This document shows, piece after piece, positions 29,455 to 64,000 of a stretch of DNA of 64,000 nucleotides. Position numbers and translations under genes: made by a program. Origin of the DNA: Elusimicrobia bacterium CG1_02_56_21 (GTDB taxonomy: Bacteria; Elusimicrobiota; Elusimicrobia; Elusimicrobiales; UBA9959); assembly GCA_001871115.1 (NCBI GenBank), contig MNUR01000129.1, positions 3,869 through 67,868 of the forward strand, written 5' to 3'. Position 1 is the stretch's first letter. Every line of letters starts with the position of its first letter. A model generated the notes under the pieces. That model saw nothing but the letters and a program-made list of their open reading frames with translations. It did not search any database and was not told the DNA's origin.

Positions 29455-29482
29455 AGAAATCGAAGATCGAAAATCAGAAGAC
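29455..29482 (+). repeat. short GRRRRTC heptad array (agaaatc gaagatc gaaaatc agaagac) in the rpoD 3' UTR
   Basis: Read directly. It is in the same sense-strand phase, and shares units (agaaatc, gaaaatc), with the array at 56401..56477. Confidence 0.5.
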
Positions 29483-29518
29483 AAAGAAAGACCCCGGGGA
29501 AGCCCGGGGTTTCTTTTT
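29483..29518. terminator. bidirectional rho-independent terminator (rpoD / convergent membrane gene)
   Basis: accccggg-gaag-cccggggt 8-bp stem, flanked by an A-rich run upstream and ttcttttt downstream. Confidence 0.85.
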
Positions 29519-54738: not shown

Positions 54739-55661
54739 CTTTCGGCCCCCTCTACCAGCCTTATAAAGACATCTTCAAGCGACGGCATGATAAGCGCGTG
54801 CGCGGCGGAAGGCGGCAGGGCGGACAAGGCCGCGTCCATAGCCGGCTTGTCGCTGAAGGCCGCGTGCCAGCGCCTGCCCTGCGGCGAAAGCTCAAGCAGA
54901 CCGCGCGCTTTTTCCAGGCCGGAGATAAAGGAAGAAGCGTCCTCCCCTTTGAAATCCAGCTCGGCCATCGGGCCGGGGAAGGCGGACTTTTTTAATTCCG
55001 CCGGAGAGCCCAGGGCTATCAGCTTGCCGGCGCGCATCAGCGCTATCCGGCCGCACTGCTCGGCCTCGTCCATATAATGCGTGGTCACTATCACCGTCTT
55101 GCCCAGGCCGGTGAGCCGGCGTATCAGCGCCCAGAACCGCGCGCGGGAGGCGGGCGCCACTCCGGAGGTGGGCTCGTCGAGGAAAACTATCTCCGGGTCG
55201 TGCAGCATGGCGGCGGCCAGGGCCAGTTCCTGTTTTATCCCTCCGGGAAGCGAGGCCACCATGGAAGTCAGCGGCTTATCGAAAGCGATAAGCTCGAAAA
55301 GTTCTTTCCGGCGCTTTTTAGCGTAGGCCGGTTCCAGCTTGCGCAGCCCGGCCGCGAAATCCAGGTTCTCCCCTACGGTCAGGTCATTGTAAAGGGTGAA
55401 CTTCTGGGACATATAGCCCACTATCTTCTTTATGCCCTGCCCGCCGTCCCCGAAGCCAAGGCCGCCCACCAGCGCGGAGCCGGAAGTGGGAACGAGCAGG
55501 CCGCAAAGCATGCGTATGGTGGTGGTCTTCCCGGCGCCATTGGCGCCGAGGAAACCGAAGATCTCCCCCCGGTTCACGGAAAAAGAGACATTATCCACGG
55601 CGGTAAAGTCGCCGAACTTTATGGAGAGGCCTTTCACTTCGAGGGCGGAGGAGGCTTTCAT
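54735..55661 (-). CDS. ABC transporter ATP-binding protein
   Basis: Walker A GANGAGKTT, signature LPGGIKQE, Walker B IVFLDEPT. Confidence 0.9.
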   Translation of the reverse strand: MKASSALEVKGLSIKFGDFTAVDNVSFSVNRGEIFGFLGANGAGKTTTIRMLCGLLVPTSGSALVGGLGFGDGGQGIKKIVGYMSQKFTLYNDLTVGENLDFAAGLRKLEPAYAKKRRKELFELIAFDKPLTSMVASLPGGIKQELALAAAMLHDPEIVFLDEPTSGVAPASRARFWALIRRLTGLGKTVIVTTHYMDEAEQCGRIALMRAGKLIALGSPAELKKSAFPGPMAELDFKGEDASSFISGLEKARGLLELSPQGRRWHAAFSDKPAMDAALSALPPSAAHALIMPSLEDVFIRLVEGAER

Positions 55662-56386
55662 TTATGCGCCCCCTTTTTCATGAAGATCTCCTCGAAATTG
55701 GCCGCGCCGGTCTCCCTGAGTACAGCTCTCGGCTCGCCGGAGGCCAGCAGGCGCCCGGAATCGAGCAGGTGCACCCTGGAGCAGCGCTCGGCCTCGTCCA
55801 TGTAGGCCGTGGAAACTATGATAAGTATTTTGTCGGCGGCCAGGCTGTAGAGCAGCTCCCAGAATTCCCTGCGGCTTATCGGGTCCACGCCGTTGGTGGG
55901 CTCGTCGAGGAGCAGCACCGAGGGCGACTGGAGGAGCGCGCACATCAGGCCCAGCTTCTTATACATCCCGCCGGAAAGCTGGCCGGCCCGGCGGTCGCGG
56001 AATTTAGCGAGCCTGGTTATTTCCAGCAGTTCCGCCGAGCGGCTGGCGTAGACCGCGGGGTCCAGCCGGTAAAGCTCGCGGAAGAACTCCAGGTGTTCGT
56101 AGATAGAAAGGTCGGGGTAGAGGCTCGCCTGCTGCGGCATATAAGCGAGGCTCGGCCGCAGTTCGCTGAAAGCGGCGGGCTTACCGCCGCTGAAATAATG
56201 GATATTTCCCGCGGACGGCTTAAGCAGCCCGGCCAGCAGGCGCATGGTCGTGGTCTTGCCCGCCCCGTCGGAGCCGATCAGCCCGTGGAGCAGCCCGGCC
56301 GAAAAATCAAAAGAGACCTCCGCCAGGGCTTGCGTCCTGCCGAACGATTTCTTCAGCTCCTCCGTCCGTATCGAAAAATTCCCCAT
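55658..56386 (-). CDS. ABC transporter ATP-binding protein
   Basis: Walker A GSDGAGKTT, signature LSGGMYKK, Walker B VLLLDEPT. Confidence 0.9.
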   Translation of the reverse strand: MGNFSIRTEELKKSFGRTQALAEVSFDFSAGLLHGLIGSDGAGKTTTMRLLAGLLKPSAGNIHYFSGGKPAAFSELRPSLAYMPQQASLYPDLSIYEHLEFFRELYRLDPAVYASRSAELLEITRLAKFRDRRAGQLSGGMYKKLGLMCALLQSPSVLLLDEPTNGVDPISRREFWELLYSLAADKILIIVSTAYMDEAERCSRVHLLDSGRLLASGEPRAVLRETGAANFEEIFMKKGAHK

Positions 56387-56400
56387 AGTCTCTTGTTCCA

Positions 56401-56477
56401 GATTTTCGATTCCTGACTCCCGACCCTCGACCCTCGACTCCCGACTCCCGATTCTCGATTTCTTATTTTCGATTATT
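56401..56477 (-). repeat. GRRRRTC heptanucleotide tandem array (11 units) in the hlyD-ATPase intercistronic gap
   Basis: Plus strand: gattttc gattcct gactccc gaccctc gaccctc gactccc gactccc gattctc gatttct tattttc gattatt. The last unit overlaps the hlyD-like stop codon. Confidence 0.85.
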
Positions 56478-57198
56478 CCGGCAGTTTAACTTCTATCGTC
56501 ATCCCCGGCTTTAAAGTCTCTTCCGAGTTAGGGAAACTGACCTTAACGGCAAAGACAAGCCTGGTTCTTTCTTTACGCGTCTGCACGTTCTTGGGCGTGA
56601 ACTCGGCCTCGGAATAGATCACGGAGATCCTCCCGGCGAATTCTTTATCCCCCGCTTCCGGCAGGAAGCCCTTCACTTCCATTCCTTGTTTAATTTTCGC
56701 CAGCATATCGTGCGGGACGTAAATATAGGCCCAGACCTCGGAGAGATCGGCCACCGTGGCCAGCTTGGTGCCGGGACCCACCAGTTCGCCTTTTTCCCTG
56801 TAGGAATAGAGCAGGCGCCCGTTGACCGGGGACTTTACCGAGCACCAGTCCGCCTTCAGCGCCGAGTCGTCGCGCTTGTATTTAAGCCGGTCATAGTTCT
56901 CCTTCGAGAGCGAGCCGCCTTTATAAAGTTCCTCGGCGCGCTTGAAGTCTTCCGCGGCTATCCCGGCGGCCAGCCGCAGATCGCCGCAGTCGATGGAGGT
57001 CAGCACCGCGCCCAGCTTGACCGGGTCGCCTTCCCGCGCCCCGTAGGACTCTATCACGCCCGAAATACGCGCGGAGAGGTCGGTCTCGGTGGCCTCTATC
57101 GTTCCGCTGTAGCGGAAATCGCGGCCATTCTTAACTTTGAAGAAGACAACCGAGCCGACGACGATCAACAGCAACAGAGGGATTATCTTTTTTTTCAT
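56473..57198 (-). CDS. HlyD-family periplasmic adaptor (short form, YbhG-like)
   Basis: N-terminal TM anchor, lipoyl/barrel-sandwich halves (GTIEATETDLSARISGVI ... VKSPVNGRL), short coiled-coil. Confidence 0.75.
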   Translation of the reverse strand: MKKKIIPLLLLIVVGSVVFFKVKNGRDFRYSGTIEATETDLSARISGVIESYGAREGDPVKLGAVLTSIDCGDLRLAAGIAAEDFKRAEELYKGGSLSKENYDRLKYKRDDSALKADWCSVKSPVNGRLLYSYREKGELVGPGTKLATVADLSEVWAYIYVPHDMLAKIKQGMEVKGFLPEAGDKEFAGRISVIYSEAEFTPKNVQTRKERTRLVFAVKVSFPNSEETLKPGMTIEVKLPE

Positions 57199-57199
57199 A

Positions 57200-58546
57200 T
57201 TATTTAACGCTCCCGTTCAGGCTGTCCAGGACGGCCAGCCTTAAGAGTATCTCCGCATTGGCCGAGGCGGCCAGGGTTTTCGCCTGAAGCTGCTTGAGGT
57301 TGGCGCTTTCCACGTCCAGCCAGGTCCCGCCGCCGGCCTTGTAGACTTCATAAGCCAGCCTGGCGGCCTCGTCGGCGTCGTCCACCGCGTCTATATTTAT
57401 AGCCTGCTCGGCCAGCAGGGCGTTATAAGCGTCCAGGGATTTTTTATAGTCTTTATCGGAAAGGAGGACGGCTTCGGTCTTTTTCTCGGCGGCGGCCTCG
57501 GCGTTCAGCTCGCTTTCGCGCCGCTTCTCCGAGGAGCGCCCGCTTTCGAAGAGCGGCAGGTTCAGGGACAGCGAAGCCGAATTCTGGACGAAAGAATAGA
57601 GATTGGGCCCGTTAGGGTAGTCCAGAGAGCTGCGCGCGCCCAGCGTCAGGCGCGGCAGCCTTTCGGCCTTGTAGCCGGCCGCTAAAGCCCTCTGCGCCTG
57701 CGCGGTATTCTCCGCGGCCCTTACGGAAGGCAGGCCCTTCTCAAGGCCGCCCGCGGCCGCCGGCAGCAGGCGGCTCAGGATCTCGGTATACGGCTCGGCC
57801 TTTATGAACAGCTGCGCCTCCTGCCCGTCGCCGTAATCGCGCCCGGCCAGGCGCGTATCCAGCGGCAGCGAGGCCCCCTCGGGCAGGTCCAGCCCGGTGA
57901 TAAAACCGAATTCCCTCAGCTCCGCCGACAGTTCGGCCCTGGCCCGCAGGAAATCCCGGCGGCGGGACAGGGTTTCCTGCCTGGCGCGGATCTCGTCCAG
58001 GCGGCTGCGCGCGCCGGCCTTGGCGCCGAGAGAAATGTCCTTGAGCTGGCTCAGCGAAAGCTGGAGGTTCTCGCCTATCAGGTAAACCCGCTCCAGGGCC
58101 AGCTGGAGGTGGAAATAAGCCACCCGCGCCCTGAGCACGGCCTGCCTGCGTATATTTTCCGCCTCGGCTGAGCGCGCCGCGGCCGTTTTCAATACGGCGT
58201 CCCGGTTGTTCTTCAGCACTCCCCCGTCGAACAAGGTCCAGTAGGCCGACGGGCCCAGGGTATAATTCCAGTTATCTCCCAGCGGCCTGCCGCCGCCCAG
58301 GGCCTTCGGCAGGGCTATAGCGGGAACCGTCTCGTTATAGCGCAGGCCGCCCTCCAGGCTGAAGCGCGGGTAAAGAGGCGAGTCCGCCGCCCGGGCCGCC
58401 GCCCCGGCCGCCTCGGCCGAAAGCCTCGCGCCGCGGTATTGATTCGAGACCGCCAGCGCGCTCTCCTCGGCCGCGCGCAGGGTGAGGGCCAGTTCGGCCC
58501 CCCGCGCCGGCGCGGCTAAGAGAAGGAAAAGGAAAAAATATCTCAT
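57200..58546 (-). CDS. TolC family outer membrane efflux protein
   Basis: 448 aa. Signal peptide and two tandem OEP repeats with long helical segments. Confidence 0.8.
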   Translation of the reverse strand: MRYFFLFLLLAAPARGAELALTLRAAEESALAVSNQYRGARLSAEAAGAAARAADSPLYPRFSLEGGLRYNETVPAIALPKALGGGRPLGDNWNYTLGPSAYWTLFDGGVLKNNRDAVLKTAAARSAEAENIRRQAVLRARVAYFHLQLALERVYLIGENLQLSLSQLKDISLGAKAGARSRLDEIRARQETLSRRRDFLRARAELSAELREFGFITGLDLPEGASLPLDTRLAGRDYGDGQEAQLFIKAEPYTEILSRLLPAAAGGLEKGLPSVRAAENTAQAQRALAAGYKAERLPRLTLGARSSLDYPNGPNLYSFVQNSASLSLNLPLFESGRSSEKRRESELNAEAAAEKKTEAVLLSDKDYKKSLDAYNALLAEQAINIDAVDDADEAARLAYEVYKAGGGTWLDVESANLKQLQAKTLAASANAEILLRLAVLDSLNGSVK

Positions 58547-59172
58547 AGCCCTATCCCCCTGACGGCTATCTCCGCCCTCTCCATTATGCCCGACTCTGAA
58601 AACAGTTCCCCGCGAACGTCCTCTATCGGAAGACCGTGCAGGACTTTCACCCCGTTGCGCTCAAAGACGCCGCTCACCAGCATGGGAAACACCATAACCG
58701 ACACCAGTGAGGAAATGATAAAAGGTATAGAGCGGTTTTGAACGGAGCTGGCCCGGCGGCATTCAGCGGTCAGAGCGGCGATCTGCTGCACATGCTCCGT
58801 AAAATTCCCCCTGACGAAAGCGAAGGCCTCTTTTTTCCCGTGGGCCAGGTCGGCGAAGATCATCGGCGCCACGCTGCGCACGCTCCGCGCGAATTTCCCC
58901 ACCTCCACCAGCGCGTTCTTGAGCCGCTCACGGGGAGTCCCCGCCACGGCTACCCCCGCCTTGAAACTTAGCATAAATTCCGCGTACATTTCTTTCAGCA
59001 CGGCCTTAAGGAACTCTTCCTTAGACCCGAAATAATAATGGAACATCCCGGTATTGACCCCCGCCACGCGGCAAGCCTCCCGCACGGTCAAGCCCGTAAT
59101 CCCCTTCTCCTGCAAGAGCTTGCGGCCGGCGGCCTTAAGCTTCAAATCCGTTCCCGATGGTGGTCTGGCCAT
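58543..59172 (-). CDS. TetR/AcrR family transcriptional regulator (first gene of the efflux operon)
   Basis: HTH TVREACRVAGVNTGMFHYYFGSKEE. ATGA overlap with tolC. GGAGG 5 nt upstream. Confidence 0.85.
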   Translation of the reverse strand: MARPPSGTDLKLKAAGRKLLQEKGITGLTVREACRVAGVNTGMFHYYFGSKEEFLKAVLKEMYAEFMLSFKAGVAVAGTPRERLKNALVEVGKFARSVRSVAPMIFADLAHGKKEAFAFVRGNFTEHVQQIAALTAECRRASSVQNRSIPFIISSLVSVMVFPMLVSGVFERNGVKVLHGLPIEDVRGELFSESGIMERAEIAVRGIGL

Positions 59173-59199: not shown

Positions 59200-59229
59200 A
59201 ATTATACAACCGTATAATTAGACAGTCAA
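59200..59229 (-). promoter_or_regulatory. consensus promoter TTGACT-N17-TATAAT with an overlapping 20-bp palindromic operator AATTATAC-N4-GTATAATT
   Basis: The minus strand reads cTTGACTgtctaattatacggttgTATAAT. Palindrome at 59200..59219, -10 at 59201..59206, -35 at 59224..59229. Confidence 0.65.
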
Positions 59230-59248: not shown

Positions 59249-59302
59249 AATTAAGGTGACACAGAACTTAATTAATGAATTAAGTTCTGTGTCACCTTAA
59301 TT
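59249..59302. repeat. AT-rich palindromic hairpin element, copy 2 (25-bp perfect arms, 4-nt loop)
   Basis: aattaaGGTGACACAgaACTTAATT-aatg-AATTAAGTtcTGTGTCACCttaatt. Confidence 0.85.
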
Positions 59303-63569: not shown

Positions 63570-63615
63570 TAGGGACTTTGCAGAACTCCCGCCAATCTTC
63601 TAATCCTCCAGTCCT

Positions 63616-64000
63616 CTAATCTTCTATCATATCCGCGTAAGCTCCGGAAACAAGGTCGCGCTTTTTAATATTCAGGAGAGCCATTAATTTCCCTGCCTCC
63701 AGGCGGCCTTTAGCCGGAGCTTCCCCCCTCCTGAGAACCACCTCCAGCTCTATAAAGCGGCCAAGGCCCTTTACCTCGTCAAAATGAATACGGGTCCGGC
63801 CTGTAAGACAGACTATCCTTTTTTTAACGACTTTTTTAAGTACGCCCAGCAGTTTAGAAAAACGGCGCAGCACCGGGGCAGCGGCGGTTAGGGGGACTAT
63901 TCTGTAATCTGAAATTTTAGGGCCTTTAAGCCCGGGGCGGCGGTAGAATACCAGGTAATCCCAGGCGCCGCGCTGCCGGCGCAGCTTAAGCCGGCCGTTC
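63616..64000 (-). CDS. class IV adenylate cyclase / CYTH domain protein (5' end beyond the window)
   Basis: The frame stays open past the listed GTG at 63873 to the window edge (..NGRLKLRRQRGAWDYLVFYRRPGLKGPKISDYRIVPL..). C-terminal RIHFDEVKGLGRFIELEV is the CyaB/CYTH signature. Confidence 0.65.
   Translation of the reverse strand, partial: NGRLKLRRQRGAWDYLVFYRRPGLKGPKISDYRIVPLTAAAPVLRRFSKLLGVLKKVVKKRIVCLTGRTRIHFDEVKGLGRFIELEVVLRRGEAPAKGRLEAGKLMALLNIKKRDLVSGAYADMIED

What the first reader, a model, noticed from the sequence alone, without database searches (positions are those of the whole stretch)
56401..56477. Eleven tandem GRRRRTC heptads fill the hlyD-ATPase gap of the efflux operon
On the coding (minus) strand the 87-nt gap reads aataatc gaaaata agaaatc gagaatc gggagtc gggagtc gagggtc gagggtc gggagtc aggaatc gaaaatc, then tggaacaagagactATG. 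The period is strictly 7 nt, purine-rich with a fixed TC. This does not resemble a CRISPR array, a REP element or a coding repeat. The RNA would be essentially unstructured and carries about 6 GGAG/GGGAG Shine-Dalgarno-like cores and many GGA motifs. The rest of the operon is joined by 4-nt overlaps, and the arrays occupy exactly the two places where coupling is broken. Possible roles are a ribosome standby or loading platform, a titration site for a GGA-binding protein (CsrA-like) or the neighbouring RRM protein, or a slippage-prone heptamer tract that varies expression. At the DNA level many units contain GANTC (gactc/gattc).
Basis: seen in the sequence. Interest (0 to 1): 0.6.

Follow-up and report, generated by a model that had tools for sequence, protein, structure and literature searches.

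The report
Heptamer microsatellite inside an efflux operon
This is a real 7-base tandem repeat between two genes of an efflux-pump operon, but it belongs to a known, widespread class of G-rich bacterial heptamer microsatellites that appear and disappear between close relatives, so it is most likely a tolerated slippage product and not a dedicated control element.

Summary
On the minus strand, 56401-56477 holds 11 heptads in strict register, 10 of them RRRRRTC (chance expectation 0). They fill the 86-nt hlyD-ABC gap. A second array fills the permease-permease gap. A third follows the rpoD stop codon, where there is no downstream cistron.

The source is an Elusimicrobia genome from groundwater. 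The tract matches a described class: G-rich heptameric simple-sequence repeats (GGGANTN type; Rehm et al. 2015, PMC4692102). That class lies between co-oriented ORFs, on the coding strand, just after the stop codon. It varies in length and has no known function.

Among more than 80 orthologous operons, both junctions are ancestrally compact (TAAtATG; 4-nt overlap). The closest relatives (87-92% nucleotide identity in hlyD) carry no array or arrays of 50, 59 or 63 nt. Other relatives carry unrelated heptads, inverted heptad pairs or MITE-like inserts at the same junctions. Inserts occur only at junctions whose downstream gene has a weak Shine-Dalgarno (SD) site even when the junction is compact.

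The adjacent RRM gene is also present in array-less relatives. Only array 1 has a G-quadruplex motif.

Across phyla, 32% of such arrays start at a same-strand stop codon, against 4% of random positions. This bias is unexplained.

Verdict: new member of a known kind, of modest interest.

The parts
56401..56477 (-). Array 1: 11 tandem heptads (10 RRRRRTC plus gaaaata). The first unit overlaps the hlyD stop codon TAA (56473-56475).
56387..56400 (-). Degenerate 3' tail of array 1 (tggaaca agagact), ending at the ABC1 ATG (56384-56386). It has no SD site at canonical spacing: best duplex -3.3 kcal/mol.
56424..56449 (-). The only canonical G-quadruplex motif (G3N1-7 x4) in the three arrays: GGGAGTCGGGAGTCGAGGGTCGAGGG.
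53586..53620 (-). Array 2: five heptads (ggaaatc gagaatc aggagtc gggagtc tggaatc) in the Perm1/Perm2 gap (53575-53622). It starts 2 nt after the TAG stop codon and shares 26 of 27 nt with array 1.
29455..29475 (+). Array 3: three heptads, followed by a degenerate tail (agaagac aaagaaa). It starts 1 nt after the rpoD stop codon and lies upstream of the rpoD terminator hairpin.
56473..57198 (-). HlyD-family periplasmic adaptor gene, upstream of array 1.
55658..56386 (-). ABC ATPase 1, downstream of array 1.
53623..54738 (-). ABC-2 permease 1, upstream of array 2.
52474..53574 (-). ABC-2 permease 2, downstream of array 2.
59201..59229 (-). Sigma-70-like promoter (TTGACT-17-TATAAT, 11 of 12 positions) upstream of the TetR gene. 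It is the likely start of the polycistronic transcript that contains arrays 1 and 2.
   Evidence: consensus match only
52055..52080 (-). Terminator-like hairpin after the cupin gene, the likely end of the operon transcript. No promoter-like or terminator-like site lies in either array.

Best explanation
The tract is a heptanucleotide simple-sequence repeat (microsatellite) of the G-rich GGGANTN/GRRRRTC kind already described in Xanthomonas and cyanobacteria. Here it occurs in an Elusimicrobia genome.

It arose, and changes length, by strand slippage in 7-nt steps. It grew out from the stop codon of hlyD into a junction that was originally compact (TAA-t-ATG). It is transcribed as part of the operon mRNA.

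It is evolutionarily young and dispensable. It persists because of where and how it sits. The junction's downstream gene never relied on an SD site embedded in the upstream ORF. The sense-strand RNA is purine-rich, weakly structured and free of start codons, so it does not block expression of the downstream cistron. At most it acts as a passive, length-variable spacer that somewhat loosens coupling between hlyD and the ABC genes.

Shown: the repeat itself, membership of the class by position and strand, turnover among relatives, and restriction of inserts to weak-SD junctions. Inferred: slippage as the mechanism, and neutrality or mild effect on expression.
For: 1. Real and non-random.

2. Same anatomy as the published class (PMC4692102). 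[quoted passage not shown] No function has been found for it.

3. Not specific to this operon. A third array follows rpoD, and an octamer array overlaps the stop codon of the CYTH-domain gene. Two other Elusimicrobia genomes carry similar arrays elsewhere (L009, L119).

4. Turnover.
- The hlyD/ABC1 junction is TAAtATG or similar in many relatives.
- Array-bearing relatives have 50 nt (L124), 59 nt (L178) and 63 nt (L208), against 86 nt here. L209 (92% nucleotide identity) and L204 (87%) have a unique 19-nt spacer instead.
- Array 2 is absent from L178, which has a 1-nt gap there.
- In a neighbour-joining tree, arrays sit only in derived subclades.

5. Other lineages filled the same two junctions with different heptads (GGATGAG x6, TAGTGGC, GGGGCTA, AAGGATA, CGTAAAT), with inverted heptad pairs, or with MITE-like inserts.

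6. Period 7 is the commonest non-triplet period in 621 kb of Elusimicrobia DNA: 87 arrays, against 9 for period 5, 44 for period 8 and 32 for period 10.

7. The junctions that accept inserts have weak downstream SD sites even when compact (median -5.6 and -4.2 kcal/mol). The junctions that always overlap have strong ones (-8.4 to -10.4).

8. No promoter-like site, terminator-like site or Rfam match lies in the tract.
Against: - Placement is far from random. It is sense-strand and anchored on the stop codon, both here and across phyla: 37 of 116 arrays, against 4.2% of random positions and 7 of 107 in the mirror orientation. Simple neutral slippage does not predict this.
- Arrays 1 and 2 share 26 of 27 nt. 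This hints at copying between sites, or at strong channelling of sequence change.
- Both downstream genes lack a proximal SD site while the arrays carry SD-like cores. Neither gap contains any ATG, GTG or TTG. A translational role is therefore not excluded.
- No read-level data on length polymorphism are available. The three assemblies with identical arrays all come from the same sample.
- The source genome as a whole could not be scanned.
Confidence: 0.65

Rival explanations
1. Ribosome standby or post-termination scanning track. After terminating at the hlyD (or Perm1) stop codon, ribosomes are held on the unstructured, start-codon-free purine tract by repeated weak anti-SD contacts. They are then passed to the SD-less downstream ATG, which restores coupling across the gap.
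For: - There are 5 SD-like sites in gap 1 and 3 in gap 2 (about -6 to -9 kcal/mol), lying 16-58 nt upstream of the ATG. There is no SD site at canonical spacing: ABC1's best is -3.3 kcal/mol.
- Neither gap contains ATG, GTG or TTG.
- The RNA has no excess structure.
- The arrays begin exactly at stop codons.
Against: - Array 3 follows rpoD and has no downstream cistron.
- Class-wide, the arrays hug the upstream stop codon and lie far from downstream start codons: median 125 nt, none within 10 nt.
- Relatives express the same SD-poor ABC1 behind 1-nt gaps, 19-nt unique spacers, or 100-323-nt unrelated inserts.
- Other lineages' heptads at these junctions contain start codons (GGATGAG, TAGTGGC).
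- The anti-SD sequence was assumed, not read from this genome.
Confidence: 0.12
2. G-quadruplex element. The G-tracts fold into a DNA or RNA quadruplex that modulates transcription, translation or mRNA stability, as proposed for GGGAATC repeats.
For: - Array 1 contains G3N1-7 x4 (56424-56449), plus a fifth G-tract. A quadruplex enters the ViennaRNA minimum-free-energy structure (-17.26 against -17.0 kcal/mol).
- Related repeats form quadruplexes in vitro (PMC4692102).
Against: - Arrays 2 and 3 have no quadruplex motif, not even one built from G2 tracts.
- Most heptads at the same junctions in relatives lack G3 tracts.
- The predicted energy gain is negligible.
- No regulatory effect was found for the class in the published study.
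Confidence: 0.07
3. Contingency (phase- or rheostat-variable) locus. Gain or loss of heptads tunes the ratio of adaptor and outer-membrane components to ABC components of the pump within a population.
For: - Unit number differs among close relatives.
- Heptamer SSRs that grade expression are known in Haemophilus influenzae hmw genes (papers listed; details from my own knowledge).
Against: - The tract does not lie in a promoter or an ORF.
- Gene functions next to arrays are unrelated to one another (rpoD, CYTH-domain/MatE, efflux). The published class likewise shows no enrichment for surface or adaptive genes.
- No within-sample variation was seen in three assemblies, although these are not independent.
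Confidence: 0.08
4. Binding array for a protein. On RNA this could be CsrA, the neighbouring RRM protein or a cold-shock protein with one domain per ~7 nt. On DNA it could be a protein that polymerises on contiguous heptads, like omega of pSM19035.
For: - There are five GGA motifs with regular 7-nt spacing.
- An RRM gene lies 186 nt upstream of the operon.
- Candidate heptamer-binding proteins have been discussed for TAACTGA repeats (PMC4679880).
Against: - The RRM gene is adjacent in at least 14 relatives, including array-less ones (L131, L133, L137, L139, L144, L149, L174).
- Unit sequences are heterogeneous within the array and differ between genomes.
- The GGA motifs are not in hairpin loops.
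- The arrays are dispensable in close relatives.
Confidence: 0.04
5. Cluster of GANTC methylation or restriction sites acting at the DNA level.
For: - Nine GANTC sites lie within 134 nt of arrays 1 and 2.
- GANTC is about 2-fold under-represented in the window as a whole (114 observed, 216-238 expected).
Against: - Only 5 of 11 units in array 1 contain GANTC, and array 3 contains none.
- Relatives' arrays use units without GANTC.
- No GANTC methyltransferase was identified.
Confidence: 0.02

Closest known systems
G-rich heptameric SSRs of Xanthomonas and Nostoc (GGGAATC / GGGGA(C/T)T; heterogeneous form (GGGANTN)n), Rehm et al. 2015, PMC4692102
   Same: Both are tandem 7-nt units that are G-rich on one strand. 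[quoted passage not shown] Both are transcribed, have mixed units, and vary in length between related genomes. Inverted pairs also occur (seen here in relatives). No function is known.
   Different: - The phylum is different (Elusimicrobia).
- No exact GGGAATC unit is present. The units are more A-rich and heterogeneous (GRRRRTC).
- Only one of the three arrays can form a G3 quadruplex.
- These arrays fill intercistronic junctions inside an operon that were formerly translationally coupled.
- Presence or absence is patchy at about 90% nucleotide identity, whereas 83% of repeats were shared between Xcc and Xac.
Cyanobacterial STRR heptamers (Calothrix/Anabaena; cited as ref. 39 in PMC4692102; unit sequences from my own knowledge)
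   Same: Both are dispersed tandem heptanucleotide arrays in non-coding DNA, with many copies per genome and no known function.
   Different: The unit sequences differ (CCCCAGT, TTGGTCA, CAACAGT). STRRs are restricted to filamentous cyanobacteria.
TAACTGA direct repeats of Beggiatoaceae, cyanobacteria and Bacteroidetes (MacGregor 2015, PMC4679880)
   Same: Both are intergenic heptamer direct repeats. A post-transcriptional or translational role has been suggested, with S1, Csp and CsrA discussed as possible binders.
   Different: TAACTGA repeats sit a few nucleotides upstream of start codons, with one fixed unit and 2-6 copies. The arrays here are anchored on the upstream stop codon and have variable units.
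Phase-variable heptamer SSRs of Haemophilus influenzae hmw1A/hmw2A (PMC8262952, PMC12721329)
   Same: Both are heptamer SSRs in transcribed non-coding sequence whose copy number changes by slippage.
   Different: The Haemophilus repeats lie in the promoter or 5'-UTR of surface adhesin genes and have a demonstrated, graded effect on expression. Here the repeat lies between cistrons, no effect has been shown, and the neighbouring genes are unrelated housekeeping and efflux genes.
Contiguous heptad operators / parS of plasmid pSM19035 bound by omega (PMC9499535, listed; binding mode from my own knowledge)
   Same: Both are uninterrupted arrays of 7-bp units.
   Different: The plasmid heptads are DNA-level sites for a specific repressor and partition protein, have a conserved unit, and lie in promoters. 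Nothing comparable is indicated here.

Membership tests
G-rich heptameric SSR class (Rehm et al. 2015) | Head-to-tail 7-nt units, at least 2 units (at least 14 bp) | tested here: met
   11 units in strict register. Arrays 2 and 3 have 5 and 3 units.
G-rich heptameric SSR class (Rehm et al. 2015) | Contains at least one exact GGGAATC unit (the authors' operational search rule) | tested here: not met
   No GGGAATC occurs in arrays 1-3. The closest units are GGGAGTC and AGGAATC. Relatives L156, L188 and L208 do contain GGGAATC.
G-rich heptameric SSR class (Rehm et al. 2015) | Heterogeneous unit consensus (GGGANTN)n | tested here: met
   GGGAGTC (x3 in array 1) fits GGGANTN. The flanking units are A-substituted variants of it.
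G-rich heptameric SSR class (Rehm et al. 2015) | Intergenic, mostly between co-oriented ORFs, with the G-rich strand on the coding strand 0-50 bp from (or overlapping) the upstream stop codon | tested here: met
   All three arrays start 0-2 nt after, or overlapping, a same-strand stop codon. A cross-phylum sample gives 37 of 116, against 4.2% of random positions.
G-rich heptameric SSR class (Rehm et al. 2015) | At least 4 intact G3 tracts (quadruplex potential) | tested here: inconclusive
   Met by array 1 only (56424-56449). Not met by arrays 2 and 3. Actual folding is not testable here.
G-rich heptameric SSR class (Rehm et al. 2015) | [quoted passage not shown] | tested here: met
   Gaps of 86, 63, 59 and 50 nt, or no array, at the hlyD/ABC1 junction.
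G-rich heptameric SSR class (Rehm et al. 2015) | Many copies dispersed over the genome | tested here: inconclusive
   The 64-kb window holds 3 heptad arrays and 1 octamer array, at unrelated genes. The whole genome (GCA_002322475.1) could not be scanned.
Phase-variation (contingency) SSR | Located in a promoter spacer, a 5'-UTR or the 5' part of an ORF, so that unit changes switch or grade expression, and enriched at surface or adaptive genes | tested here: not met
   The tract is intercistronic or in a 3'-UTR. The neighbouring genes are rpoD, a CYTH-domain gene, MatE and the efflux genes. No expression data exist.
CRISPR array | Repeats of 23-50 nt separated by unique spacers of similar length | tested here: not met
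   The units are contiguous 7-nt repeats with no spacers.
REP / MITE-type palindromic intergenic elements | An imperfect palindrome or terminal inverted repeats that form a stable hairpin | tested here: not met
   Folding is no better than shuffled sequence (z = +0.95 and +0.74). No inverted partner was found. Some relatives do carry inverted heptad pairs and MITE-like inserts at this site.
CsrA-binding leader | Two or more GGA motifs, typically in hairpin loops, with one overlapping the SD site; a csrA gene present | tested here: inconclusive
   Five GGA motifs are present. They are not in predicted loops and none overlaps a functional SD site. Presence of csrA was not tested.
Curated RNA families (Rfam 15) | A match at the family's gathering score | tested here: not met
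   No hits at gathering threshold in the window. The relaxed search of 53500-56550 gave only two sub-threshold matches, neither in an array.

The most novel reading that the evidence does not exclude
Stop-codon-anchored, sense-strand G/purine-rich heptad arrays may not be neutral microsatellites. They could be a cross-phylum consequence, or tool, of what happens where translation ends. One version is an RNA track that holds and passes on post-termination ribosomes. Another is repeat expansion driven by R-loops on the first ribosome-free stretch of nascent G-rich RNA. In this operon the arrays would then act as replacement coupling devices at junctions that have lost overlap coupling.
Probability: 0.1. 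Interest if true: 0.65.

Novelty: new member of a known kind. Interest (0 to 1): 0.3.

Why it matters
By itself the tract is an ordinary instance of a known repeat class, so it should not be treated as a new regulatory element of efflux operons.

Its value is as a clean natural experiment. A single conserved operon, across more than 80 Elusimicrobia genomes, shows two junctions switching between several states: a 1-nt or overlapping junction, heptad arrays of different units and lengths, inverted heptad pairs, and MITE-like inserts. The junctions with strong embedded SD sites never accept inserts.

The comparison also extends the published positional rule. Rehm et al. found arrays starting at stop codons with the G-rich strand as sense in three genomes. 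Here the same rule holds across many phyla, with an orientation asymmetry of about 5-fold (32% against 6.5%). That keeps open two questions: why bacteria favour 7-nt repeats, and why the arrays start where translation stops.

Tried and rejected
GRRRRTC x5 was used instead.
- Quadruplex formation as the common denominator: rejected, because only array 1 has the motif.
- A link to the RRM protein: rejected, because the gene is adjacent regardless of whether arrays are present.
- 5'-ward growth of the array until it meets the ORF boundary, as an explanation for stop-codon anchoring: rejected. The window and L178 share the stop-proximal units and differ in the central and 3' part.
- An internal promoter or terminator in the tract: none found.
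- A known RNA family: none found.
- A CRISPR, REP or coding repeat: excluded by the anatomy.
- Length polymorphism within the sample: three assemblies are identical, but all derive from SRR1534154, so this is uninformative.
- The first positional statistics used crude longest-ORF gene calls, which produced spurious 'intragenic' classifications. They were replaced by a test that looks directly for a long open frame ending at the array.
- The anti-SD sequence used for duplex energies is the canonical one. It was not read from this organism's 16S rRNA.

Full report
**What is there**

On the minus strand, 56477-56401 reads as 11 heptads in one unbroken 7-nt register: aataatc gaaaata agaaatc gagaatc gggagtc gggagtc gagggtc gagggtc gggagtc aggaatc gaaaatc. 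Two degenerate units (tggaaca agagact) follow before the ATG at 56386. The first unit overlaps the TAA stop codon of the upstream gene. The gap is 86 nt. TRF reports period 7. RRRRRTC x3 matches 10 times in the window, against 0.00 expected from shuffles.

All of those matches fall in three arrays:
- Array 1 is the reported tract.
- Array 2 (53620-53586, minus strand) lies in the 48-nt gap between the two permease genes.
- Array 3 (29455-29475, plus strand) starts 1 nt after a stop codon.

**Context**

Pfam confirms the operon on the minus strand: TetR (58543-59172), outer-membrane factor (57200-58546), HlyD-type adaptor (56473-57198), two ABC ATPases (55658-56386 and 54735-55661), two ABC-2 permeases (53623-54738 and 52474-53574) and a cupin (52122-52457).

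A strong sigma-70-like promoter lies at 59229-59201, and a terminator-like hairpin lies after the cupin gene at 52080-52055. Nothing promoter-like or terminator-like lies in the arrays. The arrays are therefore internal to one inferred transcript.

Junction by junction, TetR/OEP, ABC1/ABC2 and ABC2/Perm1 overlap by 4 nt. OEP/HlyD has a 1-nt gap. Perm2/cupin has a 16-nt gap with a good SD site. The two array junctions are the only long gaps.

Array 3 follows rpoD (sigma-70 domains). Behind it are a terminator hairpin and a convergent gene.

**Properties of the RNA and DNA**

The gap RNAs fold no better than shuffled sequence (z = +0.95 and +0.74).

Gap 1 holds 3 GGGAG, 2 GAGG, 1 AGGA and 5 GANTC. 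Neither gap contains ATG, GTG or TTG. Only array 1 has a canonical quadruplex motif, at 56424-56449.

I computed duplex energies against an assumed canonical anti-SD sequence. The compact junctions have strong SD sites (-8.5 to -10.8 kcal/mol, spaced 3-7 nt from the start codon). The exception is hlyD, with -6.6 kcal/mol at 10 nt. ABC1 has none (best -3.3 kcal/mol). For Perm2 the nearest SD-like site is 17 nt from the ATG. The arrays carry moderate SD-like sites 16-58 nt upstream of the start codons.

Rfam gives nothing at gathering threshold. A relaxed search gives nothing in the arrays.

**Organism**

The ABC1 protein is encoded, with the identical array, on a 153-kb contig of a groundwater metagenome (SRR1534154), in GCA_002322475.1, and in a Logan assembly of the same run. 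The closest HlyD homologues are labelled Elusimicrobia or Elusimicrobiales.

**The kind of repeat is known**

The hits span Xanthomonadales, many cyanobacteria, Verrucomicrobiota, Planctomycetota, Acidobacteriota, Bacteroidota, Gemmatimonadota, Elusimicrobiota and others. Other heptads are often adjacent to the matched array.

Rehm et al. 2015 (PMC4692102) describe exactly this class in Xanthomonas and Nostoc:
- The repeats are GGGAATC-type, with heterogeneous (GGGANTN)n forms.
- About 90% are intergenic, mostly between aligned ORFs.
- They are transcribed and vary in length between related species. Inverted pairs occur.
- They form quadruplexes in vitro. No function has been found.

Over-representation of heptamers among bacterial SSRs had been noted earlier (their ref. 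33). MacGregor 2015 (PMC4679880) describes another heptamer family, TAACTGA, located upstream of start codons.

I re-tested the positional rule on my own cross-phylum sample. 37 of 116 arrays begin within -15 to +9 nt of the stop codon of a long same-strand ORF. The figure is 4.2% for random positions and 7 of 107 for the mirror orientation. Excluding Moorena does not change the result.

**Comparative evidence at this locus**

I fetched 80 orthologous operons from metagenomes, plus six loci encoding the closest HlyD proteins.

At hlyD/ABC1, many genomes have ...CCGGAATAAtATG or a gap of 2-8 nt. The closest relatives differ from one another:

| Locus | hlyD nucleotide identity | Junction |
|---|---|---|
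| L209 | 92% | unique 19-nt spacer |
| L178 | 90% | array, 59 nt |
| L124 | 90% | array, 50 nt |
| L208 | 88% | array, 63 nt |
| L204 | 87% | unique 19-nt spacer |
| this window | - | array, 86 nt |

The window and L178 share the five stop-proximal units and differ downstream.

Other relatives carry unrelated heptads (AAGGATA, CGTAAAT, GTGACCA), octamers, inverted heptad pairs that would form long hairpins, or a MITE-like insert of about 100 nt.

At Perm1/Perm2 the ancestral state is a 4-nt ATGA overlap, seen in 19 of 45 loci. L178 has a 1-nt gap, so array 2 is missing there. Other lineages have GGATGAG x6, TAGTGGC or GGGGCTA arrays.

In a neighbour-joining tree of HlyD+ABC1, the basal lineages are compact. 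Arrays occur in two derived subclades whose sister lineages lack them.

In 621 kb of this Elusimicrobia DNA, period 7 is the commonest non-triplet tandem-repeat period. The arrays found mostly start within a few nucleotides after a same-strand stop codon.

**Why these two junctions**

Across the orthologues, the junctions that almost always overlap have strong SD sites embedded in the upstream ORF (median -8.4 to -10.4 kcal/mol). The two junctions that accept inserts have weak downstream SD sites even when compact (-5.6 and -4.2 kcal/mol). An insertion after the stop codon would separate an embedded SD site from its start codon. Inserts therefore survive only where there is no such dependence. 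The arrays create the uncoupled gaps; they do not occupy pre-existing ones.

**Interpretation**

The best-supported reading is a young, dispensable, slippage-driven heptamer microsatellite of a known class. It is tolerated at weak-SD junctions and transcribed within the operon mRNA.

- Array 3 has no downstream cistron.
- Class-wide, arrays associate with stop codons, not start codons.
- Relatives express the same genes behind very different spacers.

The RRM gene neighbours the operon whether or not arrays are present. Quadruplex potential applies to only one of the three arrays.

**What remains unexplained**

- The strong sense-strand anchoring on stop codons across phyla has no explanation.
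- Arrays 1 and 2 share 26 of 27 nt, the top direct repeat in the window, even though array 2 is absent from a close relative. This could reflect copying between the two junctions, since both upstream ORFs end in GGAATAR. It could also reflect parallel G-to-A decay from the same core unit. I could not decide between these.

**Limits**

- Gene calls in the fetched loci are crude.
- The anti-SD sequence is assumed.
- The genome scan was truncated.
- No read-level or expression data were available.

Noticed in passing
window 63594-63626 (minus strand): An octamer array (AGAAGATT AGAGGACT GGAGGATT AGAAGATT GGCGGGAG) overlaps the TAG stop codon (63618-63616) of a CYTH-domain gene, upstream of a MatE gene. 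Its placement matches that of the heptad arrays. L169 has a similar AGAGGATT array at its HlyD junction.
   Followed up: partly
window 29455-29489 (plus strand): A short heptad array lies between the rpoD (primary sigma factor) stop codon and the rpoD terminator hairpin. The next gene is convergent, so this member of the family has no downstream cistron.
   Followed up: yes
window 59249-59302 and 51021-51069: Two related near-perfect palindromes (GGTGACAC...ACTTAATTC; arms of 25 nt at 100% and 23 nt at 96%). The first lies between the terminator of the RRM gene and the -35 box of the TetR-operon promoter. They could be an operator or a small palindromic element family.
   Followed up: no
whole window: GANTC is about 2-fold under-represented (114 observed, 216-238 expected), yet 9 sites are concentrated in arrays 1 and 2. 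This could reflect a restriction-modification system or a composition effect.
   Followed up: partly
L147, L151, L152, L166 (HlyD/ABC1 junction, ~6727-6826 in L147); L195 Perm1/Perm2 junction: A hairpin-rich insert of about 100 nt (ggacccgtcgccccggcgaaagcc...ggattccggcttgcgccggaatgacgg) recurs right after the stop codon in several relatives. In L195 a related copy sits between two inverted heptad arrays. It looks like a MITE- or REP-like element that uses the same landing site.
   Followed up: no
L155, L164, L172 (HlyD/ABC1 gap); L130, L195 (Perm1/Perm2 gap); L127: These are inverted pairs of heptad (or 16-mer) arrays, for example (GAGGGTT)n ... (AACCCTY)n, which would fold into long hairpins whose arms are themselves tandem repeats. 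Rehm et al. reported the same 'convergent pair' form in Xanthomonas.
   Followed up: partly
orthologous operons L124-L203, all junctions: Inserts of any kind occur only at junctions whose downstream gene has a weak SD site even when the junction is compact. Junctions with strong SD sites embedded in the upstream ORF stay overlapped by 4 nt in nearly all genomes.
   Followed up: yes
window 56436-56462 vs 53593-53619: Arrays 1 and 2 share a 27-nt stretch at 26 of 27 identity, the top direct-repeat family in the window. Both upstream ORFs end in GGAATAR. This could reflect copying between junctions by template switching at microhomology.
   Followed up: partly
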